Source of the DNA: Lineus longissimus
Lineage: Eukaryota
NCBI RefSeq assembly: GCF_910592395.1
Contig: NC_088313.1
Span: 17,766,500-17,830,499, forward strand
Reading direction: 5' to 3'
DNA: 64,000 nt
The position numbers and the translations under genes were made by a program. Shown here piece by piece: positions 4,503 through 58,209 of the stretch. Every line of letters begins with the position of its first letter. Positions within the stretch are counted from its first letter, which is position 1. The notes under the pieces are model-generated. The model saw only the letters and a program-made list of their open reading frames with translations. It did not search any database and was not told the origin of the DNA.

Positions 4503-4532
4503 GGGGTCATCCTATTTTGGGTATCAGGCTGT

Positions 4533-11243: not shown

Positions 11244-12927
11244 ATGATAATCTCTGAGTGGTGGCAGGATCCGTTATCAGACGACATCTACGCGACGTTA
11301 AAGCACAAAGAGGAAGAGATACCTCGGTATCTCGCCCAGTCGCCACAACTTCATCAGAGGCGATATCTCGTTGATTGGGCGGCAGAGATTTGCGACCAGT
11401 TTTCATTATGCTACACGACACGCCACCTAGCGATTCATCTGCTGGACTTCTTCATGGACAACTTCTTCATCGACCTGGATAGGATCTTCTTGGTTGTGTT
11501 GGGTTGCATTCTCGTGGCCAGTAAGTAAATTTGTACATTATTAGTTGAAAGGGGAATGCAATTTCCACTTGATATCAGTGGTATACCCTAAGGCTAAGTT
11601 GTGATAAAACACATTTGTAGGACACCAGTTTTTTAGGCCTCAAGTGCTTTAAGTTAAGGAGATCTTCTGTAATTTAAATTGAGAAACTTGCTGTTCAGCG
11701 ATCTGTGTTTTTCTAAGGAAGTGCGTTTTACTCTTTGGTGCATCAGAAAATGCAAATGAAAATTCAAAGCTTTTTTTTACTCCAGGCAAATATGAAGAAA
11801 AAGAAGTGGACATTCCGCGGTGGCCCCAACTCAACAACTATATCCACAACAGCACTTTTACCGGGCTGGAATTTGTCCAAATGGAGATCACGCTATTGAC
11901 GTTTTTCAAGTGGCAAGTAGGGATTCCCACCGCTGCCCACTTTACGGACTACTTCTTAATGATATCTCTCAAGGCGATTATGGTGCACTGTGAGAGTCCA
12001 AACTGGGTGAACCAGATCCAATACTTCATGGCCAAATATATCGATTACTTTTTGGAGATATCATTACAAGGTAAGTTGGAATGATATGAAAAGTGTCACG
12101 TGTTCTATATCACATCATTGGGAAGGACATGTCAGAAGGAAGCCATACTGTAGTCTGTACAGAGCCAAATTTTTTATGATGTTACTTTCAAAATGATTGC
12201 ACCCTTGTTTGTTTACACTCATACCTGCCAGTGTAACTTGAAGCTGACTTGTCGATCTTGCTAGGGAAAGTGTAATGGCGCATGACAGGCTACTTCTTCT
12301 TGACAGACCAAACCTACAGAAAGTACCGTCCGTCCCTTGTGGCTGCAGCCAGTATCACAGCATCAAGAATCTGCCTCAATATTCCACCATCTTGGCCAAA
12401 AGAGATGGAACAAGCCTCAGGTTATTTATGGGAAGAAATTGAAGATCCTGTTTGCCGTATGCTCGAGTAAGTCGGATGTCTTCCACCATATGGAAAAATT
12501 GTTGTTGTCTCTAGAGCAGCGCCTTCAGAGTATTTCAAGACAAAATAGAATGAATCGGTTAGAAGGATATGAATAATGATTAAGAGAGTCCTCTATTTGC
12601 TATGATGACTCATCAGGATGTTGCCTGGTCATGCAGTTGTTGGTTCATCCAAGCCTGGTCTCTACTGTACAATGAAGAATGATGCTGAATCTAACACCAC
12701 CAAGTCCACAAATGTTGCATGTAGTCACCTGTAGATGACCAATTTGACACCGTCTGGCCCCTGCTTCTAGCTCCCCCCCCTTCAAACCTGATTATGTTTA
12801 TGTTATTTAATTTCTCTCTGACAGGTCTCAAAAAGTCGACCGAAACAAAGACGAAACGCAGAAGTCGACTCCTCCACCGACAAAAATGCCTCTCAAGGCC
12901 CCAGACTCTGGTTATCGATCGACCTAA
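11244..12927 (+). CDS. CCNJ: Cyclin J (cyclin box fold). Three well-supported coding exons plus one putative terminal exon.
   Basis: Exons 11244..11520, 11786..12070 and 12307..12466 (phases 1, 1, 2; donors gtaagt, gtaagt, gtaagt). The product MIISEWWQDPLSDDIYATLKHKEEEIPRYLAQSPQLHQRRYLVDWAAEICDQFSLCYTTRHLAIHLLDFFMD...LVASKYEEKEVDIPRWPQLN...LLTFFKWQVGIPTAAHFTDYFL...[36 protein letters not shown] matches human cyclin J (QSPQLSLRRYFADL...RHLAVYLLDLFMD...LLASKFEEKED...PTAAHF.EYYL...MAKYADYFLEVSLQD...APSLVAAAC). The putative last exon 12825..12927 (acceptor tttctctctgacag; ESQKVDRNKDETQKSTPPPTKMPLKAPDSGYRST*) is speculative. Confidence 0.7.
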
Positions 12928-13632
12928 GCCGTCCCAGGGTGTCCTTCTCTCATAGAATTATGTTGCTTTGAGGAAGAGGATTTGAGGACAGTTAAGAAAG
13001 CCTGATCAGGCTTTGTACATGTAGATACTTTTGTTGTGAACTTCAAGATTATCTTGGTATTCAGTTATGAATAGACAAGTAGGTTATAATCCTTCTTTGA
13101 AGAAAACTAATCATGTGAGTGAAATTAGTCCAAAATTCTGCTTGTCAGAAAAAAAATTGTATTCCGTTCATCGAACCTGTTTTATATTATTTCAATTAAG
13201 TTTAATTATTCTCAGGAAAGGGGTGCTGATGCAAAGTGGCGGGCTTATACCTTCCCTTATAAACATTGTCTTGTTGAAGTAATTGTCTCGAAGCCTTATC
13301 TGAGGATCTCTGCATCTAGTCAAATCAAAAGAGATCAAAGATCAAAAATATGATGTGTCTGCCCTCCAAGAAAACTTAGGCTTTGGAGGGTCAACCCTGA
13401 AATGTTGTTTTTGAATCTTTTTCTTTATGGTGCTCGTGTTTTCTGCTGCCTCATAGACATAAGTGCGGAAAACTCCCAGACATTACATGTATCATTTCCT
13501 CTTATGTTCTATGAATAAGTGTATCTTGTTTAAACCTGTGTTCTCTTCTTGAAAAATAACTTTTTCAATGTATTCTTGCTCATTCGATCTGATTGCCTAA
13601 GATTGGGCTTGTAATTTGTGCAATTTTCATTT

Positions 13633-15783: not shown

Positions 15784-18098
15784 CTATTTTGGTTTCGTCT
15801 CTTGATCCGAAACATTCCGAATATAGATGGCGTCCTCTGCTGGTTTCTCTACGTTATCCATCTCCATCATGTAGGAAGATGCAATCGCTAAGGCTGTGCC
15901 ATCGTGGCTGAATGACAGGGAGGCAATGCTGGTCGGGTACCTGAAACGGATAAGAACAAAACTTTTACCTATCATTGCTGCGCTTATCAAATTTGATGAT
16001 TCTGTCCTACACCTGTCTTCTAAATTACCTCATCTTTGTCTCAAAGTGATGATATAGGCCACTCAAGATTTGAAACTGAATTCCAGAGAGCAAAAGTTTT
16101 ACTCACCTGTGAAACTGACAGAGTCGTTTCTTGTTGAAACCATCCCAAACATTGACAAAACCATCCGACCCTCCAGTGGCAAATGTGTTGTATAGGCTGT
16201 GGAAGGCGATGGAATTCACAGGGTAGATCTTCTCCATTCCATCCTCCTTGATACGATGGCATTTGAAAGCATACTTCTTCTTTTGAACCTCAGGGCTTGG
16301 GTCGAGATATTCAACTGCTACACGACCTATTGAGAAAAGTAAAGACTGTAGTTAAGTAGAAAGCTAGAAAAATCTACTTAACGTATGTTGCCAATGAGGC
16401 AAATTTCTCCTTCAGTGTTGCTATTGGTAATCTTAAAATCTCAAGTCTATGACAGTCATGAAGTTGGCAAGTTTATCAAATGCTCCTCACTTACCCTCTA
16501 TAGAGCTTAGGACATATCCTTGTTTGTTCGGGAAGGTTCGAATACATCTTGTCTGGTACTTTAAACTGGACTCTCTTTTTTGTTGTACATATCCCATATT
16601 TCGTAGATCCCAAACTAAAACTTTGCGGAGTGCTGTACCAACAACTAACTGATTACCAGTAACCCCAATGGTATAGACCTGATGAAAAAAGAAGATGACA
16701 ACAAAATAAGAGCATTTTGGGAACTGTTTTTGACTTATCAACACTTATGTACTGAAAATGGGGAACTTTTTTCAAGGCTTAGATATTCTGAGAACATGTA
16801 GTCATCAAGTGGAAGTTCCTACAATGAAACAAACACTGTTAGACCCCCATCTTATAGTCATACATGTACATGTACCAATCTCATCTCAGGAGGAATATAA
16901 TTAGGTTACGTGTATCGCTACCAATATAGGGAACTAACCAGATAAAATTGCTATGCTTTCTGTGTGTAGACTGTAACATATCATTCACATATTCCCTCTT
17001 TCATACAAATCAGCAGATATTACATGTAAGTGGAAGAACAGGGCATCAAAATATTGCCACCACTTCAAATCCATGCTTACTCCTGGTAAGCAGCACTTAC
17101 CCTTTCTGGTTGTGAATACGACCCCACGAGACATGGTGCACGGGGATCCCATAGTTTTATTGTTGAATCCCAGCTTCCAGTCACAATATAATTCAGCTCT
17201 GAACAGTATTCCACGCATCGCACTGCATCAGCATGTCGGCCAATAGTTGTTTCTGAAAGTGAAAGAAGTAAAGTTTATCATGTTTATTCAAAACCTTTTG
17301 CTAAACAGCCAAGAAATGGTGCTTTTCACAAGATAACATTGCTGATGTAACACGGGAATACAGCTTTTTGCCCCTCGACGATATATTGATACCATAAATG
17401 CTTAATTGTATTGTACAGACTGATAATGAGATTATTCCTATCCGAACAAGGCCCTCTCAAAAACCACCTGAGCTCTCCAAAAAACTTAACGTGGAAGTGT
17501 GTTTCGTATGGGTTAGTGGCCCTGAATGATACCATCTTGGAAATGGAATATCAAATTCAGAGAAAAGAAGCTTCAAGCCTACCTTGATGAGTATTTAGAT
17601 CAAAAGCTTTCAGCTGGTGGTCCAAACCTCCACTGTAACTGTGGACAGCATCCTGAAAATTGAGGTTGTTTTTTAGTTTTAAAACTTTGCAATCATTTCG
17701 AACTGATATCGTTCATCAACATTGCACATTATCATAAGATCCAAATATGTTTAAGTTCTAATTTCAGCTGATAAAGAGAATGAAGCCAGAGCAAGTCCAG
17801 CATGATGCGGATGTGATCCATCCAATCCAAGGGGCAATCACCTTCCATTCCAAGAAGATTCTCACAATATTTGGGATTTAAGTTTTACTTTTTTTCTTAC
17901 ATAAAAGCAACAGTCCAATACGGGTTCACCATGGTTGAATCGTAACCTCCTCTTGTTCTCAATAACATCATAGAGGTGGACGTGACTATCCCAGGAAGAG
18001 GCCAGCAGAAATTGCGACGAGGTTGGACTGAACTTGATGGCTGTGATCCCATCATCTGGGGCATCGGCTAACTTGAACTCATTTGGCTGGTCTGTCAT
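15784..18098 (-). CDS. BUB3: Mitotic checkpoint protein BUB3 (WD40 repeat). Complete CDS in 6 exons.
   Basis: Minus-strand exons 18098..17901, 17652..17583, 17252..17101, 16678..16495, 16326..16107 and 15940..15784, all GT-AG with compatible phases. The product [45 protein letters not shown]...[23 protein letters not shown]...[14 protein letters not shown]...[69 protein letters not shown]...[29 protein letters not shown]...ETKPK* is nearly collinear with human BUB3. An acceptor immediately upstream of the ATG (ttgttacag) implies a separate 5'UTR exon in the CpG-rich 18.5-19.0 kb region. Confidence 0.85.
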
Positions 18099-22012: not shown

Positions 22013-25000
22013 ATGGGTGACACACTAAAGAATCTCCAAGGTGTCTATGAACGCTGGGAGAATAAACCTGGCAGCAGTAGAAATGTTAATGGCTATGACC
22101 CCGCTGTAAATGCTGGCAAACAGGCATGGAGGAAAAAGTTTGGTGACAACATTGGTCCGGCACCTCATCAGCGCACCAGGCGCTACAAGAACACAATACC
22201 AACATTGGTAAGTAGAGTGAGTGACTTGGATCTGGTAGAGCTTGGGCCAGTTTTTATTCGTTGAAGAGAAAAATGAATTCTCCACTCTCTCTCTTCAGCC
22301 AAAGAACTGCCTTCTTGGTGATTTCAAGAGCCACCCAATGAGAGCCGAGCATGCAATCTTCAAGAGGCCATTTATGGGGAGGTGCTGCAACTGTGTGCAG
22401 ATAAGTCGGGTATGTTGTCTTGCTATAAATATGAATGCAAAGAAAGTCATACTAAAAAATTATGTCGATTTCCGATGAAAATGCTTTTGTGGTATTTTTG
22501 CATTTTGTCAAAACTGTTGGAACCAGAGCAATGTTGGTTGACATTCCGTCAAGCATACATGTGTGAGTATCAGATGTTTCAACTGCAACATCTGTGACTT
22601 ATTTATTTGACAGAGCAAATGGGCTGGCCTATTGCCTAAAGTAAACTGAACACTAGACTTAACCCATTCTGCCTGGGTGCTGATGAGAAACAAGAGCACT
22701 CAGAAAATTTGTTGATATTGCATTGGAAGCCATGAGGTTACAGTTTTTCATTGAAAAAGTATTGAAAACCTAGTTCCCACAGGATGCTTTTTCGGATAAA
22801 CGCTTCTTCAGGACTAAGTATCGTCATTGTTTTGTCGCTTTCTACTGTACATGTACTTACTTCTTAGGTGTACTTTCAGAATACCTTTTACACTGACAAT
22901 GTGACGATGGCTGGCTCAATGAATATATTGCGGGTCGATACCGAGGACAGGGGCCAAGGTTTATTTACCAATCTGTTCTGCCACATTGCGTACGTGATGA
23001 AGCGCGACATCAGTCACAAATATCCAGATATCACAAAGGCTGTGCTCAGCAGTGACAGGTACATGTAATTCAAAAAAGATTTTTGCAAAAACTTAAAGAA
23101 CTTTTTTTGGTCAGAAATTTTTTTTCAATTTGAAAACAAATTTCAGGCAGTATGGAGTGCCTTGTTGGGAACAAGTTGAACAAAATGAAAGCTGTTCGTG
23201 TTTGAATATTTTGGAATGAAGCACAAATTTTTAGCTGAGTTGCATTAGGTGTGAGGAGAGTAATGTTAGGATTCAGTTATAACAGTAAACTGCCAAATAT
23301 TGCAGGTGTTGTAATTTAGGAATTTGATGGGTATGTCAATTTGATGTCACCCTTTCATCTTGCAGAATTCAAGATGCTATAGATGAAGAAGTCATAAATA
23401 CTACTGAAGACGCAAAGTTGCGGTTTGATCGAGATAATTACGAGAAAGTTAGCAAAAAGTGTCAGAAGAGGGTCACAAAGTTGCTAAAAAATATGAAAGC
23501 TGCAATATCCAGGAAACTGATCCGGTAAGTTGCTTACAGATACATTTGTTTATCTTAATAATCATTTAGATGAGCTACAGATAGTGCAAACACCTTTGCA
23601 CTGACCAACCACATCAAGTGGCTTAAGTTTCTCTTTTTGGAAATGATGCGCTGGTATTTGTTTCACAAGTGATGTAGTGATGAATATTGTTTTATCCAAT
23701 TGTGTTAAGATAGTTTCAAGTTAAGTCAGTTCACTGATTGTCTCTCTTTCAGCTTCACAGGTTGGTTCCTACTGAAGTTACTTGGCAGTCTTCTCAATTC
23801 TATAGTGGTGCATCACGGACAGATGGAAATGATCAAGAAAGCATCTCAGGTACATTTGTTAAAATTTTGACCACATGTGAAGCGTTCGTGCACACTAATA
23901 CCAGTTTGCCAGCAACTGGGGAAACCCTCTCATAAAGGTGAACATTTAGGGCTGGGAAAATAAAGTTTCCAGTTGTTCATAGCATTTATATATGTATTTG
24001 CATTGTTTGTATTCTTTCAGAAACATAAGCATGTGCCTTTAATTTTCCTGCCCCTTCACCGAAGTCACTTGGATTACATCATCCTGACCTACACTCTGTT
24101 CCACTGGGATATCAGCGCCCCCTATGTAGCTGCTGGGGACAACCTCCGAATACCATTCTTCAGGTAAGTGCCTTTGAAGTTCTCATTGGTGGGACTACAT
24201 GTAGTTGCTTCATATACCATCACTATACCTGCATGTTTACCAACCCAAACAGGCCAGTGAAAACATAAAATCTCTGGTGGCTGCATAGAATGACCTCGAT
24301 CATTTGCCACGCACATTATCTCCATCAGAAATCTTTGTCTGCTCGGCTCCATTGACCAAACTTGTCTCACATTACCTGTTTTCGATTCAACTCGGGAAGT
24401 TTAGATTCGTAGTTCTTCTTAAACATCAGTCCAGGCTGATGGGATTGGCTTGACTGTCTCGCGCTCGACACAAATTATCATTGAGCGCAATGATAAATAA
24501 TCAAACAATTTCAATTTTCTTACAGTTTCCTGATGAGAAGTCTTGGTGGCTTCTTTATTCGACGGAAATTGGATCGGCAGACAGGTAAAAAAGATGTGTT
24601 ATACAGAGCAGTGCTGCAGTCCTACATGTGTGAGCTGCTGAGGGAAGGTCAATCTATTGAGTTCTTCATCGAGGGGGGAAGGTCAAGAACTGGAAAAGCC
24701 TGCTTCCCTAAGGCTGGCCTATTGTCTGTGATAGTTGATGCATACTTAGAAGGTGAGTAGATGTATGGTTTACAAGGACATGCACTCCATGAGAAAAAAA
24801 CCGACTTGCCCTGTTAACAAAAATATATCTGATCTTAATACAAAACGTGTACTAAGTATGTGACTTGGGTATAACTTGATAACTTTTCAACTTTTCTAGG
24901 TGTCGTTCCTGATGTTTATATTGTCCCACTGAGTATCAGCTATGAGAAGATCTTGGATGGAAACTTCACTAATGAACAGATGGTAAGATTTGGAGAGAAA

Positions 25001-28000
25001 AAGCAGAAGGTTGTTGTTTGTGATGTTGGTAATTTGTTATATAATGACATACAAAGAATACAACTTTGGACATGATGAACTGCCTCGCACTAATACAGGG
25101 CGTACTGCCATATTGGATGGTAAACCAATGACCATGGACGGCAGAATGATGGTACAACACCACACGATTATGAAATCAATCAATTGATTGACCTGAATAT
25201 TTAATGATATTTTATCTTTTCACAGGGTGTCCCGAAGAATACGGAAACATTCTGGATGGCTGTGAAAGCAATTTGGAGACGGCTTAGGGCAAAGTTTGGT
25301 AATGTCCGTGTAGACTTCTGCCAGCCGTTCTCATTGCAGGTAAACTGATGTGAACCGAAATGTAACTGTCATGGTTTAGAGCACTTATAGAGCACTTTAA
25401 GACTACATATTCAAACTATGAAAGAGGCTCCTTTATCTTTGCTTTAATAGCTTTGATACATAGACCATTCAAGTTGAGAATATTGAATATAGATTTGTTC
25501 TTTGCCTCCAAAATTTCGGCCGTCATTTTTATGACTTCTGCCCAAACCTGCTTCCTCTATTTGAGAAAGTGGGGGAAGAGGACTAAACTGTTATCCTCAG
25601 ACAGAGAGGAAGGTCTTTGAGGTGATTCCAGTAAAGCTGATGAATATAATTTTTCCATTTCTGGCAATTCACCCGTGACTGTTTTTTTTCAGGAGTACCT
25701 TGAAGTGGCACCAAACTTCCCTGGCATGCGCAAACTCCACTCAAGTGGCAACAACAGCAGCAACGACGAAAGCAATCCGAGTCAAGGTCAAATCCAACGG
25801 ATATCGGGGAGTAGTGCATCCTTGTACGGCACAGATGTGGTCATCGAGGAACAGAGGATGATGGTGCAATCATTAGCAGAGCATATTGTTTACAGTAAGT
25901 TTTCTGAAATTTGGCTGATAAATTAGGATGGTTAAAGGTGACTTCTGACGTCACCTGAATGATTAATATGCTCGAGAAGTTAATGTATATGTTCATGTTA
26001 GAACTTAATTGAACAACCAAGACCTGTATGAATTCACTTGGCTTTGTCATTGTGGAGGAGTTTGCTGAAGCTTCTTGACAATTTGTGACAACAATAGTCT
26101 ACTTCCTTTTCCCCATATCTATGCTTACAACCTGTGTAATAATCTTTGTCTTCAATTTCAGATTCTGTGAATGCCACAGCAATAATGTCCACAAATCTGC
26201 TTGCATTTGTGCTCCTCACACAACACAGACAGGTAAGAAGACAGATATTTTCTTTGAAACACAGATATTTCATCCAGTTCATATCAGTACTTACATTTCA
26301 TTTCATAGTTTACATTAGTCATGACAACAGCCCAGTATCCTTTGTGGTGCAAATAATGTATTTAAGGGCTTTTGCAGTGATATACCAGTCTGCAGACCAA
26401 TTGTAATGTCGGATTGCCTGGTCACCTTGCAGTGTTCCTCACTTTCCATTCATTACAGGGGGCGTGTCTGTCTGAAGTTGCCATGACGTTCGAGTGGTTG
26501 AAAGATGAGATCACAGTATTGAAAGGGCGTGATGTGGGCTTCACTGGTGAGACGAAGGATGTGATATTTTATGCTGCCGACGTGTTAGGGGAACAGCTGG
26601 TGTCTGTGGCGGAACCTGATGGGTAAGTTCGAATTGTTTGACACTCACTACCAGTTTTCCTCATGAAAATTATAAGGCTGCCGGGCCCCTGGCTTTGGTT
26701 GAGAGGTCATTCTTATTTAATTGCCTCTGACTGATTTCAAGAAACTCATGGTTTATGTGGTAGGCATTCATGCAATGATTATGAATCTTGCATTCACTAC
26801 GTTTGCAGTTGTTCATCAGGTAAATAGAACTAATGTCAAGTAAAGCTTTCAAGTGAAACATTGCAATTTTGGCAGCTGTAAGTGTGGAAATTCGAAACTC
26901 TAATTTCTTGCAAATTTCCTTTACAGCGCTGACAAGGAGATCTTCATCAGTCCCAACCTCTCTTTACCCAACATCTTTGAGTTGGCATATTACTCAAATG
27001 TTGTGACTGCCATATTTCTCTTTGAGAGTGTTGCAGGTATGTAAAGCCTTTAGCAACATCGCACTTCTAAATTCAGGCTACTGTATTTCTTGGCCATCAT
27101 TCACAGCTTCAGGAGGAAATAATGTTATTCCCTCCCGACAGCTTTTATGCATATCAATCCATTTCCAGCTTCCTGCTGTTTAGTATGAATACATTTAAAC
27201 ATGTCCAAAGTTAGCTCATGCATGCGTTAGTCAGTCTGAGTCAGTCTATTTTGATTCAAAACAATAAGGATTAGATCACTGATGTTATGTGCAACTTGAC
27301 ACTTTTCAGCTGCTTCTACCTTGGCTTGCTCAGAAGATATCATGACCAACTCAAGCCCTCAACCAATCTCCGTCTCGAAGAATCAACTCAGTGATAAGGT
27401 CAAGGAACTACACCAACTGCTCAAGTTTGAATTCATGTTTGCTCCGGTAAGTGTTTCTCACTCCTCAAGATGTCAGCAGTTTAGGCCAAAATTTCACTTG
27501 AAATCAAGATGCAAGGGTGTCTTAGCGCCTCTGATTTTTACATCACACTTATTGTTTTATTTCAGAGTTGTGAATCGCAGGAGATGCGGGTCCTGGACGG
27601 AATCGACATCCTCATGACCAAAGGTGTCTTCAGTGCCGAGGAGGAGAAGTATGGCACCACTGATGACCGTCGAGCTGCTCAGCGCCTGTCGTCCATGGTA
27701 TCCTGGGATGATGAGGACTCCGACGAAGAGGGTTATGCTGATGAGGTGCTCAAGGTACAGAACTCGAGATGACACCGTTCTAAGATGATCACACCTTCAT
27801 CCAGATCTCAATAGATGAATCTTTCTTATGTGTTCACATTTTTGGAGACTCACCATATCTATACAATACCATAGTGTCTGTCACTGTCATTGTCCGTCCC
27901 CATTAGGAGAAGAATAGCTTGGCAATGTGAAGGTATTTACTCTCTGTGTCTGTTGTTCTTTATTTGCTGTGGCATTGTTGTCTCTGGCTTCATGATCTTA

Positions 28001-44200: not shown

Positions 44201-45223
44201 ATTCTTGCCAGGTGCCAAGCATTAGACACTAACTTGAGGGTAAAGGGTGTCTCAAAAGCCACGACTGGTGGGCATTTAACACTCTTTTCTAAGCCGGCAA
44301 TTAGAAACTAAATTTCAGCTCAAATCTCTTCCAGGGTATCACCTATATCCTGCTGACTGTCCACTCAGCCCTCCCAGCCCTTTTTGTGTCAACAGACAAA
44401 GCTAATACATTCTATGAAGAGAATGTTGATACCGGGCAATTCAAGGTAAGCCCCTTTCTTATTTCTCTCTTTCAGTCAAATATCTTGAATAAAGCTGTGC
44501 ATTCACTGATTGTATGTCACCAGTTGACAGTGAAGAACCTGGACCCATTCGTTAGGTAGACCGCCAGTTTTTACCCACTGAGCTTTGAGAATCTTCACCT
44601 CCATTCACCTAAACGTTGCACTATAATACTTCTTTCAAGGTTCCTGTGAGAAAGTCAGACCGGTTACCACCGCTCACAGGACAAGACTTCGACGTGACTG
44701 GTATCAACTGGAAGGAGAGCGCAGCAGATGTGGTGTTATCTTCAGCAGGTATGTGTCTTGTCAGTCTCTGTAAAATGGGTGCACAAATAGTAAAGGAATA
44801 GTATAGACAGAACAGAGGTGAGGAAATCTGAGCACTTACAAGGAATACCATATGGTAGTTTATGATAAGTAATGATCGGAAAAAGTGTGGAACATTTTTA
44901 GAGTTGCAATTTGATACAACTCTTCAGAATCATCTCTCTACTTGTTCTTGTAGAAGTCGCATACTAATTCAAGACTAGGGCAAATCAACGTTGAGATAAG
45001 TGTTATACTGCCTAGGCAGAACTGCAAGATTTAGCTGATGTTTTTTTTTCTTTTTTCAGGTTGGGTGTCTGTCACAACTGGATTTCAGCGCGTCGCTCAT
45101 TTGAGGTGTTTTACACCCGGTGAAAAGGGTCTTTGTATTCGGAAACCTGCATTGTTACCGTTTGCTGTCAACCAGAGGGGAAAAAGAGCCAAGGGTCTAC
45201 CAATGTATGAGATCAGAGAGTGA
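41262..45223 (+). CDS. NOA1: Nitric oxide-associated protein 1 / YqeH-like circularly permuted GTPase (mitochondrial). Complete CDS in 8 exons, about 692 aa.
   Basis: Exons 41262..42285, 42647..42775, 42938..43114, 43376..43605, 43932..44066, 44335..44445, 44640..44748 and 45060..45223 (stop at 45221-45223 per the ORF track). They total 2079 nt and are all GT-AG. The circularly permuted GTPase order is present: zinc ribbon [10 protein letters not shown]...CQRCH, then G4 [10 protein letters not shown], then G1 [13 protein letters not shown] in the next exon, followed by [20 protein letters not shown]. An AATAAA at about 45809 is a candidate polyA signal. Confidence 0.8.
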
Positions 45224-46927: not shown

Positions 46928-49333
46928 CTAGTCCCGGTGTGGGTGAGCAAGTTGTTCATCAGATTGTGTCCTATGGGCTGCCCTGATATTATTCGGTTGA
47001 ATATCGTTATTGTTTTGTAAATCTCCATTTCTTGGATCCTCGGCCGCAGCATCTGCTCCATTCTCCTGTCCCCATTCATGTTGTGCCTCGGACGGTTTTT
47101 CACTGTCTAAATCTTCTGGGCTATAAATAACTTCATGGCACAGCGGACAACGATCCTGAACATATAACCACTTCCGCAAGCAAACACCATGAAAGAAATG
47201 ATGACAACGAGTAATGCGTGCGGTTTTCAACTCTTGATAGCAAATAGCACACACATCATTATGCAAGTCAATTTCTGCTGAAGTTGCTGAGGGCAGTGAG
47301 TTTATCTTATTCACAGCAGTCCGTCTTCGCATGAATGTTTTCCAACCTTCTTTTGCCTGAACCCAAATGTTGAAATAAGCATGTATACACATCATGCATG
47401 CTCTTATTGTCCCACCGGACTCAAACACCATAATCCAGGCTCCGTTACAAAATAAGAAAATCCCAAAGAAGAATTCAATGGTGCTTCCTGTTGAACGTAC
47501 ATAATATACATAGTCGTCTAATTCTTCCCAAAACGTGTCCCTGCATGCATCAACCATGAAGAGTGTGTACTGAAGTAATGATATTACAACTTTTAGTATG
47601 ACTTCAATACTAAAGGCTGTCACTGCCAACAGCCATGTACTAACAGTATGTTGGGTCCATAAATAGTACAGAAAACAACTTGGAAATATAATGAGGAAGG
47701 CACACATTGTCAGAACTCGGCTGTGTTTTGAAACAGACGTGTTCCGAGAAGCACTCAGTGACATCAATAAGGGGTAAACCATACTATGAACAAAATGTAA
47801 AATTGCAGTAGATAATAAACAGAAGTTTCTATACAGTCGTTGAACCCGTTTATCAGCGTCTAAACCAGTCAATCCAGTCTGTAATGCCAATATAAAGAAC
47901 AAAATTGCTGAAACTGAACCCATGTTTTGACCCTCTTCGTTTTCCGATCCAACGAATCCAGCAAAGAGAAGTCCAATATTTTGCGTGATGTATGAAACTA
48001 CACTTGTCATTCCTGATAGTGATATCACAGTGTCACAGCCATAGACCAATAGAAGCCTGCTAATAGCCCACAGGTTATCCACAGATAGTGTGTAGTAACC
48101 CAACTTGTTGTAGTTTTCAAACACTTGGTACCCACTTAGAAGAATAACTTGATAGACAAATCTAGTGATCCAGAACACACGAAGAACGTCAGGTACGTTA
48201 AGTCGTATCCATTGATTTTCAATGTAGCCTTGAATACCATAATGTCGAATCGCATACCGACCTAGCATGTAACCCATTAGCAATGAGTGGTAAATGTGCT
48301 TTAATTTTGTAACCAGTAGTAGTAGGAGTTCTACAATAGGAAATACCATTGCTATCATGGGCATGTTACATACGACACGATCAGGGAGGCCGACAAACTT
48401 ACACAGGGAGGGTAGGAGGTATGAAGAATAGGTGAAACATCGCATAAATGTTGAGAGATAATTTGTGTAGACTTCACGCCTCATCCACGGCGGTTCCACA
48501 CGCAGATTGTTGAAATTATAAGACAATCCCAACTGCAGCGTTAGATTGATTAGAAAAGTTCTAATATGCTGTGTCACTGCTTCTCCTGGGTCCTCTGATA
48601 ATGTCAATGGTTTCGAAAGTTTCATTGCCATGTTCCTGTTCCAGACATATGAGATGGCTACCATTCCCAGAGAGATAAGGTAAGTGTAGGTGTAGATCAA
48701 TTGCTCTGTTGGCAGGAAGAAGATCAGCAGCGCACAGATGAAACCTGAAAGAAGAGAGAGTAAATTGTTCTATAATTCCTAAATCAATGATCAGGCAAAA
48801 CATAGAAAAAGACTAAGTTCTAAGTTAACTTAGGACTATCTCAGCCCAACTGATCAGCCAAGGCCAGGGTATATAGATCCAGAAGGATTGTTTGCTTGGC
48901 TTTTATAATCAATGCCTGGGACAAATCAGAAGAGGGGGATTGTTCTCCACTTTCAGTTTCACTTCACTTCAGAGACGGTCAAAACTACGCCATGAACTTG
49001 ATGATTTTTACAGAAGATTGAAACAACAACAAAACAACCGCCGCAGTAGTACTAGTAATACTAGTAGTAGTAGTAGGCACCCAAAACATACCATTACCAA
49101 CGACGAGGGACACACAGTTTTTACTTACATATCAATGACACCAAGATCCAGATCAGGGCTTTCAGATTGATAACTGATTCTTCCGACGACAGAAACTCTG
49201 GGAAGAAAAACAGAAGGAAACTTCTGTTCAGCACGGAATCCAGGACGAAAAGTGGAGGGACTCTCATCACCACATCAAAAACAGCCATATATCTCGATCG
49301 AATCGGCATTTTATTGGCTCGGGGTGACTTCAA
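46928..49333 (-). CDS. RNF145/RNF139-family polytopic RING-H2 E3 ubiquitin ligase (RNF145-like), paralog A. Two coding exons.
   Basis: Minus-strand exon 1 49333 (or the second Met at 49309)..49129, with donor T|gtaagt. Exon 2 48744..46928, with acceptor ctttcag, phase 1, 1817 nt. Multi-pass hydrophobic body, then the C-terminal RING-H2 CAICYQELKTARITRCHHFFHGVCLRKWLYVQDRCPLCHEV (compare human RNF145 ...TPCNHYFHALCLRKWLYIQDTCPMCH) and an acidic tail. Exon 1 (MPIRSRYMAVFDVVMRVPPLFVLD...) is homologous to exon 1 of paralog B, with the same intron position and phase. Confidence 0.8.
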
Positions 49334-49797
49334 AGGAAACCTGGGATGTTTATGATTTACAATATATAGGTTTTACTAGTGTAATTTCATATCTTGGCAG
49401 CAAAATCAGGAAGTTTTTATCATTTTTATGTTGACAGTTCCAGCCCATTGAATGACCAATTCCTGTTTAAACTGCGCATGCGTCAAGCTAGACTTCATTT
49501 TGCGTATTGATATAAAATTTTACATTTTTACAAAAAATGCTAAAATAGCCTCTAATATACATCATTTAAAATATAAATACCTACTAACTAACGTCATGAT
49601 ACTTTTTGGATGTTTTAAAGATGTTAGCTGTGTGTAATTACTGAATACATATTGAACTAATTTGTTCGTGGAATGCTTTCCGTAGTCAAAATCTTTGGGT
49701 GTTGTTAGGCCCCCAAAAATAAATCCTGAAAAATCTTAGAAAACCTTTCATATTTCGCCTATTTATGCAGAGTTCAAGTTAAACAAACGGCCTAAAG
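49334..49797. promoter_or_regulatory. Shared bidirectional promoter / intergenic region between the two head-to-head RNF145-like paralogs.
   Basis: It is only about 465-490 bp between the divergent start codons. It contains ctgcgcatgcgtc (49470-49482), close to the palindromic NRF1-type GCGCATGCGC element. The rest is AT-rich with no obvious TATA box. Confidence 0.4.
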
Positions 49798-52165
49798 ATG
49801 CCTCGAATAACTAAAGATCATATTATGCTTTGTGCCCATGTCATTCTTCGGGTACCAGCCCTATTTCTTATGGATTGTTGGTACAAAACCAACCCGGAAG
49901 CAATCTTGGAAAGATATGGAATTGGAATGGGCCACATCAGAGATGCAGAAATGATCCTCTCTTCTCTGTATTATGCAGGTAACATGTCACTCATATAGCA
50001 ACCTAATTCATTTAGTGTAGATGTTGGGAATGAATTGTTAGGTGTCCATCCTTCAAAGAGGCCCAAGTCACAATCTTGAAATTATAAGGACAAGGAGGAC
50101 AATGCAACAACCACTGAACCAGTTAATCACCAACAACTGCACATCCTGGGCTGGCCAATTCTAGAAGAGTGTTGAAGACAAGGCAGGAAAACCAATGTTA
50201 ACAAGATCTTCATTTGTGTTATTCAATCATGCTTGATAAATTTTTGTACCTGTTCTTGTTTCAGTCATCCTGATTGCTGTGGCGCTGATGTTTCTTCCCA
50301 TGGATATGCTGTTCCAGCTCTACCTTCACATCTTGTGTGGTGGACTCCTTCTCCTGGCACACTTCACTGCCTTCAAGTATGTTGAAGAAGAGAAAGCAGA
50401 GGAAAATCTACATTCGTCCGTCTTTGATGACAATGGCAGCATGTACAGGCTGGGGATGCATCTTGTAATTCAAGTGATTCTAAGCTCTGTTGTGGCATAC
50501 TTGATGCAGATCAAAGACTGGACAAGATTCATGTTACTCATGTACACATTGCCAATGATCGCAAGGGCAATCAATTTTCCTGTAACTGAACTTCATGTGG
50601 TACACAACTTCTCAGCCATTTTTACCATGCTTATGACCCTAATGGTTGTTTTTAACCATGTTGGGACCACCATCGATACAGTGAAGACAGGACTAAACAA
50701 TGCCCATGCTATGGTACAGAACATTGGTTGGCTCCACTTCTTTTTTACTCTTGTGGACTGGTTCCACATCCCACCTCAGTTCTTCGTCTTCTGGGTCATG
50801 ACCTTCCTAGCAGAGTTATACAAATTTACCTTTGTAAAGAACTACCAAGATGGTGTGGTCATAATTCTATTGGCAACTGTGGGGGAGTGTTGCTCCACCC
50901 CTATCAGTCTGATTGGATTGTGTATAACTGTGTCTTATACATCATGGTTCATCTTGACTTTGACTAAACTTTATCTAAAAGGCTGGGAAGGTATGAATCT
51001 GGAACGGGAGCAGACTGGATGGACCGAGGGTTTCACAATGCTACTCTTGGGAGTGCAGACTGACATTATGGAGCTAAAGGCAGCTACGCGGGCATTCTTG
51101 ATGAGTATAGTCTTATTCATTGTGGTGTTATCACTCATCCAATCAATGTATGAACTCACTGATCCAGTTCTCCTTTCACTAAGTGCGTCCCACAGCCGGA
51201 ATGTTGTACGCCACATCAAAACTGTCCTCCTCGCCACTTTCCTCTGGATGTTTCCCCTGCTAATGACATGGGCCATTTGTCAGTTCTTTGACCTGGATTT
51301 CTGGCTTTTGGTCATTATATCTAGTTGTTTGTTGACATCCATGCAAGTGTTTGGATCACTTGTTGTGTACTCTTTGTTCATCTACGATTCATTATTGACT
51401 GAACCTTGGGAAAACTTAGATGATGTTGTCTATTATGCGAGGGCAGTTACAAGAGTCTTGGAATTTGTTGTTGCAGTATTCGTTGTGTTGTACGGTGCTA
51501 AAGAATCTGTTTATGGGGAATGGAGTTGGATAAATTCCTCTATTTTAATCATACATTTCTACTTTAATGTCTGGCAGAGGTTGCAGACGGGCTGGAAAAG
51601 TTTCCTCCTGAGACGTAAGGCGGTGCAGAAAATTGAATCACTGCCACTAGCTTCGCCAGAACAACTTGAGGAATGCAATGATCTTTGTGCTATCTGCTTT
51701 CAAGAAATGACATGTGCTCATATCACGCCTTGTAAGCATTTCTTTCATGGTATATGTCTCCGTAAGTGGCTCTATGTACAGGACACCTGCCCCATCTGCC
51801 ACCAGGTTATAAACTTTCCAAATGATGTATCAGAAGATGAGTCGGCCGATGTACCTGATGCTGGAATAAGAAATGATGTAGTTCCACCACCTGCTAATGA
51901 AGCGGAAGACAACCATGCTGGAAATGCAGATGAGGACGGTTTGGAAAATAGATTCTTAATAGAAAATAACGACTCTGATGAATGGGAAGATGTGGATGAG
52001 GAGGAGATCATTGGATACGAAGGTGGTGACAGTCACAGCGATTATGAGAGCACGGATTCTCTCAGCGATTTTGAACAGAATCCGTCTGAAAGGAAAGCCG
52101 ACTTGGAATCTGATCAGGTGCGCCCCAAGGTTGACGGTGCTGGGGACAATGAGGCTAATTTGTGA
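49798..52165 (+). CDS. RNF145/RNF139-family polytopic RING-H2 E3 ubiquitin ligase (RNF145-like), paralog B. Two coding exons, about 694 aa.
   Basis: Exon 1 49798..49978 (MPRITKDHIMLCAHVILRVPALFLMDCWYKTNPEAILERYGIGMGHIRDAEMILSSLYYA; donor g|gtaaca, phase 1). Exon 2 50265..52165 (acceptor tgtttcag). The RING-H2 is CAICFQEMTCAHITPCKHFFHGICLRKWLYVQDTCPICHQV, followed by a D/E-rich tail. The body aligns to paralog A, e.g. DDVVYYARAVTRVLEFVVAVFVVLYGA versus DDYVYYVRSTGSTIEFFFGIFLFCNGA. Confidence 0.8.
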
Positions 52166-54620: not shown

Positions 54621-54622
54621 TA

Positions 54623-54632
54623 ACGGACGACG

Positions 54633-54715
<83 letters not shown>

Positions 54716-54716
54716 A
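54623..54716. repeat. (GAC)n microsatellite, about 28-31 units, directly abutting the end of the ~300-bp tandem repeat.
   Basis: cggacgacggacgacgacgacgacgac... read directly. It generates the poly-R / poly-S / poly-D artefact ORFs 54457..54774, 54536..54763 and 54620..54808. Confidence 0.95.
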
Positions 54717-55106: not shown

Positions 55107-58100
55107 TTACAATCCTAAAGTTGATTCCAATTCTTCAGAGTCCAACAGCGCCTGGAAAAAAGCAGAAGTCATCAGACACTGGTAGCATTATGTTTCTTCG
55201 TGCTCCAAATAATCACAAGGATGGGAAACAATGTGAACATCTGTTTTGAACGACTCCTCAGTGTTGTTTTGGGTCTGAATCCCCATCCCCAGGTTTCATT
55301 TGTCAAAACTCCCCATTTTTACAAGTGCATCTTAGGGTTCACTTTACTCTGATGTGTGTAATGGCCATTTACATTTTGGCATGAAATTGGATGACTTGAT
55401 GTCGTCAAGGGACCAAACTTACTCGTATGATATCTAATCCACCAATCAATTCTCCATTTACGTAAAGTTGTGGATAAGTTGGCCAATCAGAGAACTTCTT
55501 AAGACCCTGCCGTACTTCTTCATCTTTAAGGATGTCGAACGTTTCATACTTTACCCTGGAACATAAAACACACTCAAGTCACAGCGAGATGTCTTGTGGC
55601 CAAGCCGGAAAATTGACAAAATTCCAGGTCACCCATTTGCAGATATGATCATCAACATGATTCGTTGATCTTAGCTTAAAAACGTAAAATCTACTGGTAC
55701 ATATAATTCACCTCAGCTAGAAACCATTTCGATGATAATGGGATATTTGCCAAATAAAAACTCCTTACTCTGTGTCATTCAGGATACCAACTGTGGTCCG
55801 ACTAAATCCACACTGAGGCGCATCAGGGGATCCCTTCATGAATAGCATAACTGGAGCTTTGTTGACTAGTGCTTTTAACCTGAAACATTGAAGCAAGAAC
55901 TTGAGTTATCAGCACCAGAAGTCACAATTTTACCAAATCATTTTGGAAAGTATGCAGACTTCCACATCACATTTAAATGGTTGAATTAAACAGAAAACAA
56001 ACAGCTTATCATCCTTCTCTTACCTGTCATCCAAACTTCCAGACTTAGGAAGAACAGATTGGGACTCGTTATCTTTACTCCCAGTCTTAGGAAGAGAAGA
56101 TTGGAACTCATTGTCTTCAATCATCTGTTTGATAATGTCCAGACCACCAATCAGCTCACCATCGATATAAAGCTGAGGGTATGTGGGCCAGTTGGAATAT
56201 TTTTTCAAACCTGCAATGCAGAAGATACTCTCATGATTGTCCATTTCAGAATCATGAAACAGAATGGAATCCATCTCATTCAAGGTGAGTGCCCCTGGTG
56301 GCGTTTGTCTGTGGTGGCAAAACCAAATGTCTGACTTCTGGAGACAACTTTTGAGGTTTCCACCATCACCCTAGCCGTGACGTCAAAATCAACAATAGAC
56401 TGACCACATAACTCGATAAAGTTCAGCCAAGAGGTGCTCATCTGGAAAGAAGCAAATTGAATAACTTGTTGCCAAATTGTTGTAATGTCTCACCTTCTCT
56501 AACACTGTTGTCTTCTAGAATATTAAAAGATCCATACTTCACGTTCTCTTGTTTAAAGATGCCGACTATTTCTCTGCTGAATTCTGAAAGTTGCAAAAAA
56601 AGACAGTTCGAAATATGATGCATCAAAGACTAACACTCTGGAATAAGAGGTCGAAGACTACTTTTCGTGCACCCATCCTGGCCTTTTGAAAAAAGAAAGA
56701 TTTTCACCTTATGAAACCAAATGACAGAAGCTCAGTATAGTCTAAAACATGGCATGAATGTCATGGGTAGCCATGTTGATAGAAACTGCGCACAAATATG
56801 ACAGATAAAACACTGGTAAATAAAGACGAATGGAAATTTTTAAGACAGATCTTGATATTGAAAGATAGCGAGACAGAATCTGGTGTATGTTCATTCTCGC
56901 TGTTATGCCAGCTGTCATGTTTGTGTGTTTACAAGTAGGAGCCACTCTGGATGAAAAGCTAAGCAGGTTGCTTAACAAATTTTGTTCAAAAAACTGCCTT
57001 ACTACATTTTGGTTCCGCTTGAGTTCCCTTCATGAACAGCATAACTGGGCTTTGATTTATTACCGTCTTCAACCGAGCATTCAAATCCTGGAAATCAAAA
57101 ACACTATTCAGTTATAAAACATGATATGAATACTTTAGTTATTGCAATTGTGGCAAAAACATGCTCATTATGAAAAGACTTCTCTACATACACTGTAATC
57201 TGCCATCTGAGTGGTACAAGTACTTCTGGTTAGCTTGAAATAACTGGAATAACCCAGCACTCATCTGGAAGTTTAAAGTGTCTCTAGTCTTTATGTCAAG
57301 TTTTACTCAAAACATCCAAGATGTTTGAAATAGCTTGTCCCCGTCCCCACTGCCAGGTAACTATGGTAAAATCAGGATCTAACCCATAACTTTACTATAG
57401 GATACTTTTCTATAGGAGTGATCCCCAACCTTGGGAATTTGAAGCCCGATCATGAAGGGCACCACTTCAAAAACATACCTCTTCTGCAGGTGGAGACGAG
57501 GCAGTAGCAACTCCTGTCATACTTTCAGCAAACGTTTTCACTTTTTTGGTCAGTTCAGGAGGATGAGCACCATTCAAGCGATATACTACACTGTCGTCTT
57601 TGATGAACACAAAAGTTGGTACAGCCTCTATCTCATATTTTTGGGAGACCTCTGGTAGTCCCTCGGCCTCAACTACAATGAACTTGATATTGACAGAAGG
57701 GACATCCTTCATTATCTCTGCAAGTACTTCATTCATCTGCTCACATTGTTTGGACCATTCTGCAGAGAAGTGTACCACAAGTACACACCTGAAATAGTAA
57801 ACAGAAGAAATGAGTTGGAGTGAATGATGAGGCATTGTCATTGACGTTCGATTCATTGACATTGACGATTGAATTGTAAGTTCTATTTCCTATGCTGGAA
57901 CATCGTGCCCTTTTTGCTGGAGCGGTTGTGGTCAGAATGAACTATAAAGGGACGACGTGACATCTCTGAAATGAGGAGTGATCACCACATCTTCACATGC
58001 GTTTGTGAAGAACTATGACTATGAGTATGATTCGAATCGAAGGAGATTCGAGGGACTATCTTTCCGTTTACCCCCATCCCCAGTCAGAGTTCCAGTTGGC

Positions 58101-58209
58101 AGAACCTGACCGCAACACTTCAGCAATTTCGAATATCTTTTCCTTCTTACGATTTATAATCAGACAAGATTTTATTGAACTCTGATGAATTAGACGGTTT
58201 TAGCAACAT
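55107..58209 (-). CDS. GLRX3: Glutaredoxin-3 (PICOT): an N-terminal thioredoxin-like domain plus two monothiol glutaredoxin domains. 8 coding exons, 339 aa.
   Basis: Minus-strand exons 58209..58151 ([19 protein letters not shown]), 57788..57479, 57087..57003, 56583..56494, 56210..56024, 55879..55769, 55555..55423 and 55151..55107 ([14 protein letters not shown]). They total 1020 nt, all GT-AG. The Trx domain [83 protein letters not shown] aligns to human GLRX3 [60 protein letters not shown]. Grx2 has the canonical [27 protein letters not shown]...[27 protein letters not shown]. Grx1 has [15 protein letters not shown]|[10 protein letters not shown]...[29 protein letters not shown]. Confidence 0.8.

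What the first reader, a model, noticed from the sequence alone, without database searches (positions are those of the whole stretch)
11244..58209. Ancestral linkage group: orthologues of human 10q genes (CCNJ, BUB3, GPAM, GLRX3) interleaved with orthologues of human 5q33 genes (SLU7, RNF145) in one 64-kb window
In human, CCNJ, GPAM, BUB3 and GLRX3 all map to distal 10q. SLU7, RNF145 and the cyclin-J paralog CCNJL cluster together at 5q33.3. Finding CCNJ, BUB3, GPAM, SLU7, a tandem pair of RNF145-like genes and GLRX3 together within about 47 kb suggests this window preserves a pre-duplication block. The 10q and 5q33 regions would then be ohnologous paralogons descended from it.
Basis: partly seen in the sequence, partly recalled or inferred. 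Interest (0 to 1): 0.6.

Follow-up and report, generated by a model that had tools for sequence, protein, structure and literature searches.

The report
Ribbon-worm gene block matching human paralogons
A 47-kb stretch of bootlace-worm (Lineus longissimus) chromosome 6 carries ordinary housekeeping genes whose human counterparts lie on 10q, 5q33, 2q11, 4q12 and 8q24, which is the expected and already published footprint of one ancestral chromosome copied in the early-vertebrate genome duplications.

Summary
The window is Lineus longissimus (Nemertea) chromosome 6.

There are two corrections:
- The "tandem pair of RNF145-like genes" is an RNF139/TRC8 orthologue and an RNF145 orthologue. They are 29% identical and sit head-to-head, with start codons about 490 bp apart. 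Human RNF139 is on 8q24 (own knowledge).
- CIAO1 (human 2q11.2) and NOA1 (4q12, own knowledge) also lie inside the range but were not mentioned.

- A tree places vertebrate CCNJ and CCNJL as a vertebrate-only sister pair, with the worm gene outside both.
- RNF145, NOA1 and CCNJ share a chromosome in another nemertean and in gastropods.

It is not new:
- The 2p/8p–4p–5q–10q (NKL/MetaHox) paralogon has been described since the 1990s–2000s.
- L. longissimus is published as keeping bilaterian ancestral linkage groups intact, so almost any multi-gene window of this genome should look like this.

One modest extra is the order RNF139(−)/RNF145(+)/GLRX3(−). It recurs with the same orientation in an annelid-like contig. 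Human CCNJL–SLU7 and GPAT2–CIAO1 also remain close neighbours. This hints at local linkage surviving, not just chromosome-scale linkage.

The parts
8469..8798 (-).
   Evidence: Pfam PLAC8 E=2.8e-21
11244..12927 (+). Cyclin J gene, pro-orthologue of human CCNJ and CCNJL. Four coding exons: 11244-11525, about 11791-12075, about 12318-12467, 12826-12927
   Evidence: 100% identical to NCBI cyclin-J-like isoform X2 [Lineus longissimus] P0241; Cyclin_N domain; NJ tree
15787..18083 (-). BUB3 orthologue. At least six coding exons mapped; first and last few codons not mapped
   Evidence: tblastn against human BUB3 gives 61-84% identity per exon over residues 5-324. The human sequence was verified as exact. 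In the PDB the best hits are the paralogue RAE1 (1.6e-53) and yeast Bub3 (8e-27)
22013..28864 (+). GPAM (mitochondrial glycerol-3-phosphate acyltransferase 1) orthologue, many exons. The start is approximate
   Evidence: Human GPAT1 8e4y_A E=1e-125 over query 305-994; Acyltransferase domain; exon ORFs read
31892..34105 (-). CIAO1 orthologue (WD40 protein of cytosolic iron-sulfur assembly), tail-to-tail with GPAM.
   Evidence: Human CIAO1 3fm0_A E=6.9e-101; Drosophila Ciao1 4.6e-85; WD40 domain
35436..40040 (-). SLU7 orthologue (second-step splicing factor), about 10 coding exons. The start codon is approximate
   Evidence: Human SLU7 5xjc_Z E=7e-189; Pfam Slu7 3.3e-31; exons
41262..45223 (+). 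NOA1 (nitric oxide-associated protein 1, YqeH-type mitochondrial GTPase) orthologue.
   Evidence: About 98-100% identical per exon to NCBI nitric oxide-associated protein 1-like [Lineus longissimus] P0121 at the clean exon matches; human NOA1 8csp_9 E=3.1e-68
46928..49309 (-). Exon 2 is 46928-about 48760; exon 1 is about 49130-49309
   Evidence: TRC8_N 3.3e-140 plus RING. 48% identity and 437 bits to human RNF139 (verified exact), against 31% to a recalled, unverified human RNF145 sequence. 52% identical to 'protein TRC8 homolog [Lingula anatina]'. Falls in the RNF139 clade at 100% bootstrap. Exon 1 read
49310..49797 (.). About 490-bp interval between the divergent start codons of RNF139-type and RNF145-type genes. 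This is a bidirectional-promoter layout (inferred, not tested)
   Evidence: Start codons at 49309(-) and 49798(+)
49798..52165 (+). RNF145 orthologue. Exon 1 is 49798-49977; exon 2 is about 50261-52165
   Evidence: 100% identical to NCBI RING finger protein 145-like [Lineus longissimus] P0001; TRC8_N plus RING; RNF145 clade
55423..58209 (-). GLRX3 (PICOT) orthologue with one thioredoxin and two monothiol glutaredoxin domains. The 3'-terminal exon is not mapped
   Evidence: Human GLRX3 domains 2wz9 (2.5e-29), 2yan (4.7e-30) and 3zyw (5.4e-28); Thioredoxin domain; exons

Best explanation
The window is an ordinary gene-dense piece of Lineus longissimus chromosome 6.

Its neighbouring genes are functionally unrelated housekeeping genes: cyclin J, BUB3, GPAM, CIAO1, SLU7, NOA1, RNF139/TRC8, RNF145 and GLRX3.

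[quoted passage not shown] Most duplicates were then lost, leaving a different surviving copy for different genes. This step is inferred:
- CCNJ, GPAM, BUB3 and GLRX3 survive on the 10q copy.
- CCNJL, SLU7 and RNF145 survive on the 5q33 copy.
- GPAT2 and CIAO1 survive on 2q11.
- NOA1 is on 4q12 and RNF139 on 8q24.

Read against the human map, a contiguous worm segment therefore looks like an interleaving of several human regions. No mechanism acts in the worm; the pattern records differential gene loss in vertebrates.

Shown here: gene identities, the species, the vertebrate-specific CCNJ/CCNJL duplication, shared chromosomes of three of the genes in other lophotrochozoans, and local conservation of RNF139-RNF145(-GLRX3).

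Inferred or taken from the literature: that all these human regions descend from one pre-2R chromosome.
For: - Species and chromosome.
- Gene identities.
- CCNJ/CCNJL: vertebrate clade 100%, CCNJ 100%, CCNJL 95% with a skate included, and the Lineus gene outside.
- Human positions from papers: CCNJL and SLU7 at 5q33.3, two genes apart (PMC9956985); RNF145 next to EBF1 at 5q33 (PMC3851033); BUB3 and GLRX3 in 10q26 (PMC5668427); GPAT2 and CIAO1 five genes apart at 2q11.1-11.2 (PMC4757728).
- The 2p/8p-4p-5q-10q paralogon: PMC2211742 and PMC2655272.
- L. longissimus retains most of the 24 bilaterian ancestral linkage groups (ALGs): PMC11789643.
Against: - Only one gene family in the window (CCNJ/CCNJL) has a demonstrated 10q/5q33 duplicate pair. 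GPAM/GPAT2 was not tested phylogenetically.
- RNF139/RNF145 are not 2R duplicates; their split predates the protostome-deuterostome divergence.
- NOA1 (4q12) and RNF139 (8q24.13) lie outside the classical 4p and 8p arms of the published paralogon. Their membership of the same pre-2R chromosome is therefore not shown.
- Positions of GPAM (10q25.2), CCNJ (10q24.1), NOA1 and RNF139 rest on my own knowledge.
- The ALG letter of Lineus chromosome 6 was not determined.
- Shared chromosomes were tested only in lophotrochozoans, not in amphioxus or echinoderms.
Confidence: 0.85

Rival explanations
1. The interleaving is partly a lophotrochozoan artefact. Two different ancestral linkage groups fused and mixed in the spiralian ancestor, so some neighbours in the worm (for example NOA1 or RNF139 against the 10q-type genes) never shared a chromosome in the bilaterian ancestor and do not belong to one vertebrate paralogon.
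For: - Four fusion-with-mixing events (J2+L, O1+R, O2+K, H+Q) are shared by annelids, nemerteans and molluscs (PMC11789643).
- NOA1 (4q12) and RNF139 (8q24) lie outside the 4p/8p arms named for the NKL paralogon.
- My shared-chromosome tests are all within Lophotrochozoa.
Against: - CCNJ/CCNJL directly ties 10q24 to 5q33.3.
- The literature places 5q and 10q in one paralogon.
- NKX6-1 (4q21.23), NKX6-2 (10q26.3) and NKX6-3 (8p11.21) show that 4q also takes part (table).
Confidence: 0.1
2. The block is a constrained microsyntenic unit. Shared regulatory elements or bidirectional promoters would hold these particular genes together, so the arrangement is functional and not passive inheritance.
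For: - RNF139(-)/RNF145(+) sit head-to-head with start codons about 490 bp apart.
- The same pair occurs in two annelid-like contigs, L001 and L003.
- L003 also carries GLRX3 exons on the minus strand downstream, as in the window.
- Lingula RNF145 and TRC8 homolog are both on a 218,111-bp scaffold.
- Human CCNJL-SLU7 and GPAT2-CIAO1 remain close.
Against: - No RNF139-type gene lies within 10 kb of RNF145 in four other contigs (L004, L005, L006, L008) or in the bivalve-like L007.
- The scorpion genes are on different scaffolds.
- In human the genes of the window are spread over five chromosomes, and the four 10q genes span about 34 Mb (own knowledge).
- The genes have no common function apart from the two ER E3 ligases.
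Confidence: 0.25
3. The co-occurrence of 10q and 5q33 orthologues is coincidence, or the gene calls made by eye are wrong.
For: CIAO1 and NOA1 were left out, and one RNF gene was mislabelled.
Against: - All named genes were verified by strong matches.
- Rough binomial p is about 1e-4 for four of nine genes on 10q alone.
- Linkage was independently confirmed in five other species.
Confidence: 0.01

Closest known systems
NKL / MetaHox (FGFR-type) paralogon of human 2p/8p, 4p, 5q and 10q (Holland, Booth and Bruford 2007, PMC2211742; Finnerty et al. 2009, PMC2655272)
   Same: The human counterparts of the window's genes fall on 10q24-26, 5q33 and 2q11, and on 4q12 and 8q24 (the latter two positions from my own knowledge). 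These are the chromosomes of this paralogy group. BUB3 lies by HMX2 at 10q26. CCNJ/CCNJL behave as a vertebrate-specific duplicate pair.
   Different: The published definition rests on homeobox and receptor gene families at 4p16, 5q35, 2p/8p and 10q26. The present genes are housekeeping singletons at 5q33.3, 2q11, 4q12 and 8q24, somewhat outside the classical bands. Whether NOA1 and RNF139 belong to it is not shown.
Bilaterian ancestral linkage groups conserved in Lineus longissimus (Simakov et al. 2022; Lewin et al. 2025, PMC11789643)
   Same: Same species and same phenomenon. Orthologues stay on one chromosome across phyla, and I see RNF145, NOA1 and CCNJ on one chromosome in another nemertean and in gastropods.
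   Different: ALGs are defined statistically at chromosome scale with no conserved order. This is a single 64-kb window. I could not assign it an ALG letter because the supplementary gene lists are not held.
Ancient conserved microsynteny and bidirectional gene pairs (for example the metazoan microsynteny blocks of Irimia et al. 2012; cited from memory)
   Same: RNF139(-)/RNF145(+)/GLRX3(-) keep order and orientation between a nemertean and an annelid-like genome. The two E3 ligase genes share a short divergent intergenic region.
   Different: Conservation is patchy, being absent within 10 kb in five other contigs. No regulatory element was shown. In vertebrates the three genes are on three different chromosomes.

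Membership tests
Conserved macrosynteny / ancestral linkage group | Orthologues of the genes lie on one chromosome in distantly related species | tested here: met
Pairs match in Haliotis cracherodii, Babylonia areolata and Littorina saxatilis. Only three of the nine genes were tested, and only in lophotrochozoans.
Conserved macrosynteny / ancestral linkage group | Linkage also holds in deuterostome invertebrates (amphioxus, echinoderm), so it dates to the bilaterian ancestor | not tested
The literature states it for the genome as a whole (PMC11789643).
2R ohnologous paralogon (10q / 5q33) | One invertebrate gene is sister to a vertebrate-only clade holding both paralogues | tested here: met
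   CCNJ/CCNJL: vertebrate clade 100%, CCNJ 100%, CCNJL 95% (NJ, 300 bootstraps, 29 sequences). The CCNJ subclade was sampled from teleosts only.
2R ohnologous paralogon (10q / 5q33) | Duplication predates the gnathostome radiation | tested here: inconclusive
   The CCNJL clade contains a skate (Leucoraja) with bony vertebrates. No cartilaginous-fish CCNJ and no lamprey or hagfish sequences were in the set.
2R ohnologous paralogon (10q / 5q33) | The paralogues map to the two regions claimed | tested here: inconclusive
   CCNJL at 5q33.3 is confirmed from PMC9956985. CCNJ at 10q24.1 rests on my own knowledge. A literature search for CCNJ and GPAM positions found nothing.
2R ohnologous pair RNF139 / RNF145 | Vertebrate-specific duplication | tested here: not met
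   Each type has protostome and vertebrate members, and the bipartition has 100% bootstrap support. The duplication is pre-bilaterian or at least predates the protostome-deuterostome split. The worm has one orthologue of each.
   Gene A scores 437 bits (48% identity) to human RNF139 against 254 bits (31%) to a recalled, unverified human RNF145 sequence. A and B are 29% identical to each other.
Conserved microsynteny block | Same neighbours in the same order and orientation in another phylum | tested here: inconclusive
   Met for RNF139-RNF145 in L001 and L003, and for GLRX3 in L003. Not met within 10 kb in L004-L008. The taxon of L001 and L003 is only inferred as annelid-like from a best match to Capitella.
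BUB3 (as opposed to its paralogue RAE1) | Closer to BUB3 than to RAE1 | tested here: met
   61-84% identity per exon to human BUB3 over residues 5-324, with the human sequence verified as BUB3_HUMAN. The PDB holds no human BUB3 chain, so RAE1 (1.6e-53) outranked yeast Bub3 there.
GLRX3 / PICOT | An N-terminal thioredoxin domain followed by two monothiol glutaredoxin domains | tested here: met
   Thioredoxin domain (2wz9). Two glutaredoxin units at 57001-56104 and 55905-55423 match 2yan and 3zyw.
GPAM as opposed to GPAT2 | Orthology to GPAM alone, or co-orthology to GPAM and GPAT2 | not tested
   Only GPAT1 is in the PDB (1e-125). No GPAT2 sequence was available, so co-orthology is an inference.

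The most novel reading that the evidence does not exclude
The window may preserve a local neighbourhood of bilaterian age, beyond chromosome-scale linkage.

- RNF139/TRC8 and RNF145 are two ER E3 ligases. From my own knowledge, both act in sterol-regulated degradation of HMG-CoA reductase. They arose as an inverted tandem duplicate sharing a short divergent promoter.
- That arrangement, with GLRX3 next door, has been kept in nemerteans, annelid-like genomes and probably brachiopods for more than 500 My.
- Remnants of the same neighbourhood survive 2R in human: CCNJL-SLU7-RNF145 within about 1.3 Mb at 5q33.3 (distance from my own knowledge), and GPAT2-CIAO1 five genes apart at 2q11.

This would imply co-regulation of the two ligases in invertebrates. 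It would also supply a worked example of reciprocal gene loss across three paralogons.
Probability: 0.4. Interest if true: 0.4.

Novelty: already known. Interest (0 to 1): 0.22.

Why it matters
The main finding matters little. It restates, for one 64-kb window, two published facts: Lineus longissimus keeps the bilaterian linkage groups, and human 10q and 5q (with 2p/8p and 4p) are 2R paralogons. It is a clear textbook-style example of differential gene loss after genome duplication.

The side observation could be a small, citable addition. An anciently duplicated RNF139/RNF145 pair is kept head-to-head, with GLRX3 beside it, in two or three lophotrochozoan phyla. That bears on the evolutionary history of the TRC8-type ER ligases and is a candidate for shared regulation.

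Tried and rejected
I used selected ORFs instead.
2. Looking up the annotated Lineus RNF145 protein for its genomic context found no gene on record. I therefore could not obtain annotated gene calls for the source genome and built exon maps by hand and with local tblastn.
3. A chimeric protein query (CCNJ + NOA1 + GPAM + PLAC8), meant to save capped searches, failed. NOA1 hits filled all 120 listed rows, and even the self-hits of the other segments were missing. It still gave NOA1 names and chromosome fingerprints.
4. The PDB search could not separate BUB3 from RAE1, because no human BUB3 chain is in the copy. I resolved this by verifying my recalled human BUB3 as exact.
5. The first bootstrap run with Biopython's calculator timed out. 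I replaced it with a numpy distance routine.
6. Literature searches for CCNJ/CCNJL ohnolog lists, for GPAM/CCNJ cytobands and for the ALG letter of the NK-cluster chromosome gave nothing usable. Supplementary gene-to-ALG tables of Lewin 2025 and Simakov 2022 are not held.
7. Rejected: a functional gene cluster. The genes' functions are unrelated except for the two E3 ligases.
8. Rejected: a recent tandem duplication of RNF145. The two genes are only 29% identical and each has its own orthologue.
9. Pfam scans of long ORFs at 3605-3982, 4416-4850, 29901-30392, 45336-45749, 53988-54167, 60510-60947 and 63563-63877 found no domain. These are probably repeats or non-coding sequence.

Full report
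**What the window is**

Base composition is about 40% G+C, with short exons separated by introns, so this is an animal genome. The long ORF at 50279-52162(+) is 100% identical to NCBI 'RING finger protein 145-like [Lineus longissimus]', carried on a contig of 21,663,950 bp. The genome note for the bootlace worm lists chromosome 6 (OU342997.1) at 21.66 Mb (PMC8593623). The window is therefore a piece of chromosome 6 of the nemertean L. longissimus.

**Gene inventory**

I listed stop-to-stop ORFs in six frames. I identified them with Pfam, with the sequences of solved structures, with the large protein database and with local tblastn. From left to right:

| Gene | Coordinates and strand | Main evidence |
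|---|---|---|
| Partial gene with Ephrin_rec_like cysteine repeats | about 300-3500 (-) | Pfam |
| PLAC8-like | 8469-8798 (-) | Pfam PLAC8 |
| Cyclin J | 11244-12927 (+) | 100% identical to the annotated Lineus protein; all 41 database hits are cyclin J or CCNJL |
| BUB3 | 15787-18083 (-) | See below |
| GPAM | about 22013-28864 (+) | Human GPAT1 1e-125 |
| CIAO1 | 31892-34105 (-) | Human CIAO1 7e-101 |
| SLU7 | 35436-about 40040 (-) | Human SLU7 7e-189 |
| NOA1 | 41262-45223 (+) | Annotated Lineus protein; human NOA1 3e-68 |
| TRC8_N+RING gene 'A' | 46928-49309 (-) | See below |
| RNF145, gene 'B' | 49798-52165 (+) | 100% identical to the annotated Lineus protein |
| GLRX3 | about 55423-58209 (-) | Thioredoxin plus two glutaredoxin domains; human GLRX3 domain structures |

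For BUB3 the PDB was ambiguous, with RAE1 at 1.6e-53 ahead of yeast Bub3 at 8e-27. My recalled human BUB3 sequence proved to be exactly BUB3_HUMAN and isoform b. The worm exons are 61-84% identical to it over residues 5-324.

All seven genes it named are present.

**Two corrections**

Second, the 'tandem pair of RNF145-like genes' is not a pair of RNF145 copies.
- Genes A and B are only 29% identical.
- A is 48% identical (437 bits) to human RNF139, whose sequence was verified as exact. It is 52% identical to 'protein TRC8 homolog [Lingula anatina]', but only 31% identical to a recalled, unverified human RNF145 sequence.
- An NJ tree of 20 sequences splits an RNF139/TRC8 clade from an RNF145 clade with 100% bootstrap support. 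Each clade contains protostomes and vertebrates.
- The worm therefore has one orthologue of each gene, and the duplication predates the protostome-deuterostome split. RNF139 and RNF145 are not 2R ohnologues.

**Testing the interpretation**

(a) Orthology and ohnology. In an NJ tree of 29 cyclin J proteins, vertebrate CCNJ plus CCNJL form a clade with 100% support. The CCNJ subclade has 100% and the CCNJL subclade 95%, the latter including a skate. All invertebrate genes, Lineus included, are outside. This is the topology expected of a vertebrate-specific, 2R-age duplicate pair. The worm gene is a pro-orthologue of both.

(b) Linkage in other species. The protein-search output gives the length of the contig carrying each hit, and an identical length to the base identifies the same chromosome.
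- RNF145, NOA1 and CCNJ share a chromosome in the palaeonemertean Tubulanus polymorphus (31,900,244 bp) and the gastropod Gigantopelta aegis (91,665,651 bp).
- RNF145 and CCNJ share one in Haliotis cracherodii (60,096,789 bp).
- RNF145 and NOA1 share one in Babylonia areolata (72,335,630 bp) and Littorina saxatilis (85,557,633 bp).

(c) Human positions from papers.
- CCNJL and SLU7 lie at 5q33.3 in the order CCNJL, C1QTNF2, C5orf54, SLU7 (PMC9956985).
- RNF145 lies next to EBF1 at 5q33 (PMC3851033).
- BUB3 and GLRX3 lie at the two ends of a 9-Mb 10q26 interval, BUB3 beside HMX2 (PMC5668427).
- GPAT2 and CIAO1 lie five genes apart at 2q11.1-11.2 (PMC4757728).
- GPAM 10q25.2, CCNJ 10q24.1, NOA1 4q12 and RNF139 8q24.13 rest on my own knowledge.

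(d) Prior knowledge. Human 10q and 5q, with 4p and 2p/8p, are the long-recognised NKL/MetaHox paralogon (PMC2211742; PMC2655272). L. longissimus is published as retaining most of the 24 bilaterian ancestral linkage groups on single chromosomes (PMC11789643).

**How it works**

Nothing is 'operating' in the worm. The pattern is historical. One ancestral chromosome was inherited largely intact in the nemertean. In vertebrates it was copied by genome duplication, and most duplicates were lost, with different copies surviving for different genes. Read against the human map, a contiguous worm segment therefore alternates between 10q, 5q33, 2q11, 4q12 and 8q24. Only cyclin J kept two copies among the families I could test.

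The gene identities, the CCNJ/CCNJL topology and the lophotrochozoan linkage are shown here. The common pre-2R origin of all five human regions is taken from the literature for 10q, 5q and 2p/8p-4p. For NOA1 (4q12) and RNF139 (8q24) it remains an inference.

**Is it more than chance?**

Against random placement, yes. Four of nine genes on 10q has a rough binomial p of about 1e-4 using my own gene counts, and linkage is confirmed in five other species. Against the appropriate null, a genome that keeps its ancestral linkage groups, it is what nearly every multi-gene window should show.

A partial rival is that lophotrochozoan fusion-with-mixing of two linkage groups contributes some neighbours. 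I cannot exclude this for NOA1 and RNF139, but it cannot explain the 10q/5q33 link.

**What goes beyond the expected**

Local order seems partly conserved.
- The RNF139-type and RNF145-type genes are head-to-head, with start codons at 49309 and 49798, about 490 bp apart.
- The same divergent pair occurs in two ENA contigs, L001 and L003, whose RNF145 is closest to that of the annelid Capitella.
- In L003 GLRX3 exons follow on the minus strand, exactly as in the window.
- Lingula RNF145 and TRC8 homolog sit on a scaffold of the same length, 218,111 bp.
- The pair is not seen within 10 kb in five other contigs.
- GPAM-CIAO1 are immediate neighbours in the worm, while GPAT2 and CIAO1 are five genes apart in human.
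- CCNJ, SLU7 and RNF145 lie within 41 kb in the worm. In human I recall CCNJL, SLU7 and RNF145 as lying within about 1.3 Mb.

These observations are suggestive of surviving local linkage. They are post hoc and were not tested against a null.

**Verdict**

As a discovery it is already known, so its interest is low. The RNF139/RNF145(/GLRX3) arrangement is a modest lead worth a systematic survey.

Noticed in passing
window 46928-52165, with 55423-58209; loci L001 4574-11974 and L003 3940-21719: RNF139/TRC8-type (-) and RNF145-type (+) genes lie head-to-head, with start codons about 490 bp apart. The same divergent pair is in two annelid-like ENA contigs, and in L003 GLRX3 exons follow on the minus strand as in the window. 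The two genes are ancient paralogues (29% identical), not recent tandem copies.
   Followed up: yes
window 22013-34105: GPAM and CIAO1 are immediate tail-to-tail neighbours. In human the GPAM paralogue GPAT2 and CIAO1 are five genes apart at 2q11.1-11.2 (PMC4757728). This may be a remnant of the same adjacency on a third paralogon.
   Followed up: partly
window 11244-52165: Cyclin J, SLU7 and RNF145 lie within 41 kb. In human CCNJL and SLU7 are two genes apart at 5q33.3 (PMC9956985), with RNF145 about 1 Mb away (own knowledge). This suggests local, not only chromosome-scale, retention on the 5q copy.
   Followed up: partly
window about 300-3500 (-): A gene running off the left end encodes repeated cysteine-rich Ephrin_rec_like units (Pfam 7.7e-11, 1.7e-6, 1.5e-5). 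Its identity and human counterpart were not determined.
   Followed up: partly
window 4531-5309: A 358-nt inverted repeat has arms 99% complementary and 63 nt apart. Each arm contains about nine copies of a 22-nt tandem unit. It looks like a foldback or MITE-like element, and its long ORFs have no Pfam match.
   Followed up: no
window 29315-30897: Two arrays of a 103-bp satellite (5.2 copies at 67% and 4.1 copies at 94% matches) lie in the GPAM-CIAO1 intergenic region. They create long spurious ORFs on the plus strand.
   Followed up: no
window 53915-54721: A 301-bp unit repeated about twice is followed by a (GAC)31 microsatellite, in the gap between RNF145 and GLRX3.
   Followed up: no
window 58757-59013: A 135-bp unit is present about 1.9 times (82% matches), just upstream of the GLRX3 start. 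The consensus unit looks partly self-complementary by eye; this was not tested.
   Followed up: no
protein P0002: A JGI 'hypothetical protein' on a 10,278-bp contig is 89% identical to the Lineus RNF145. A close relative of L. longissimus therefore seems to be present in some JGI metagenome or assembly.
   Followed up: no
From my own knowledge human PLAC8 is at 4q21, beside NKX6-1 (4q21.23), which would fit the same paralogy group.
   Followed up: no
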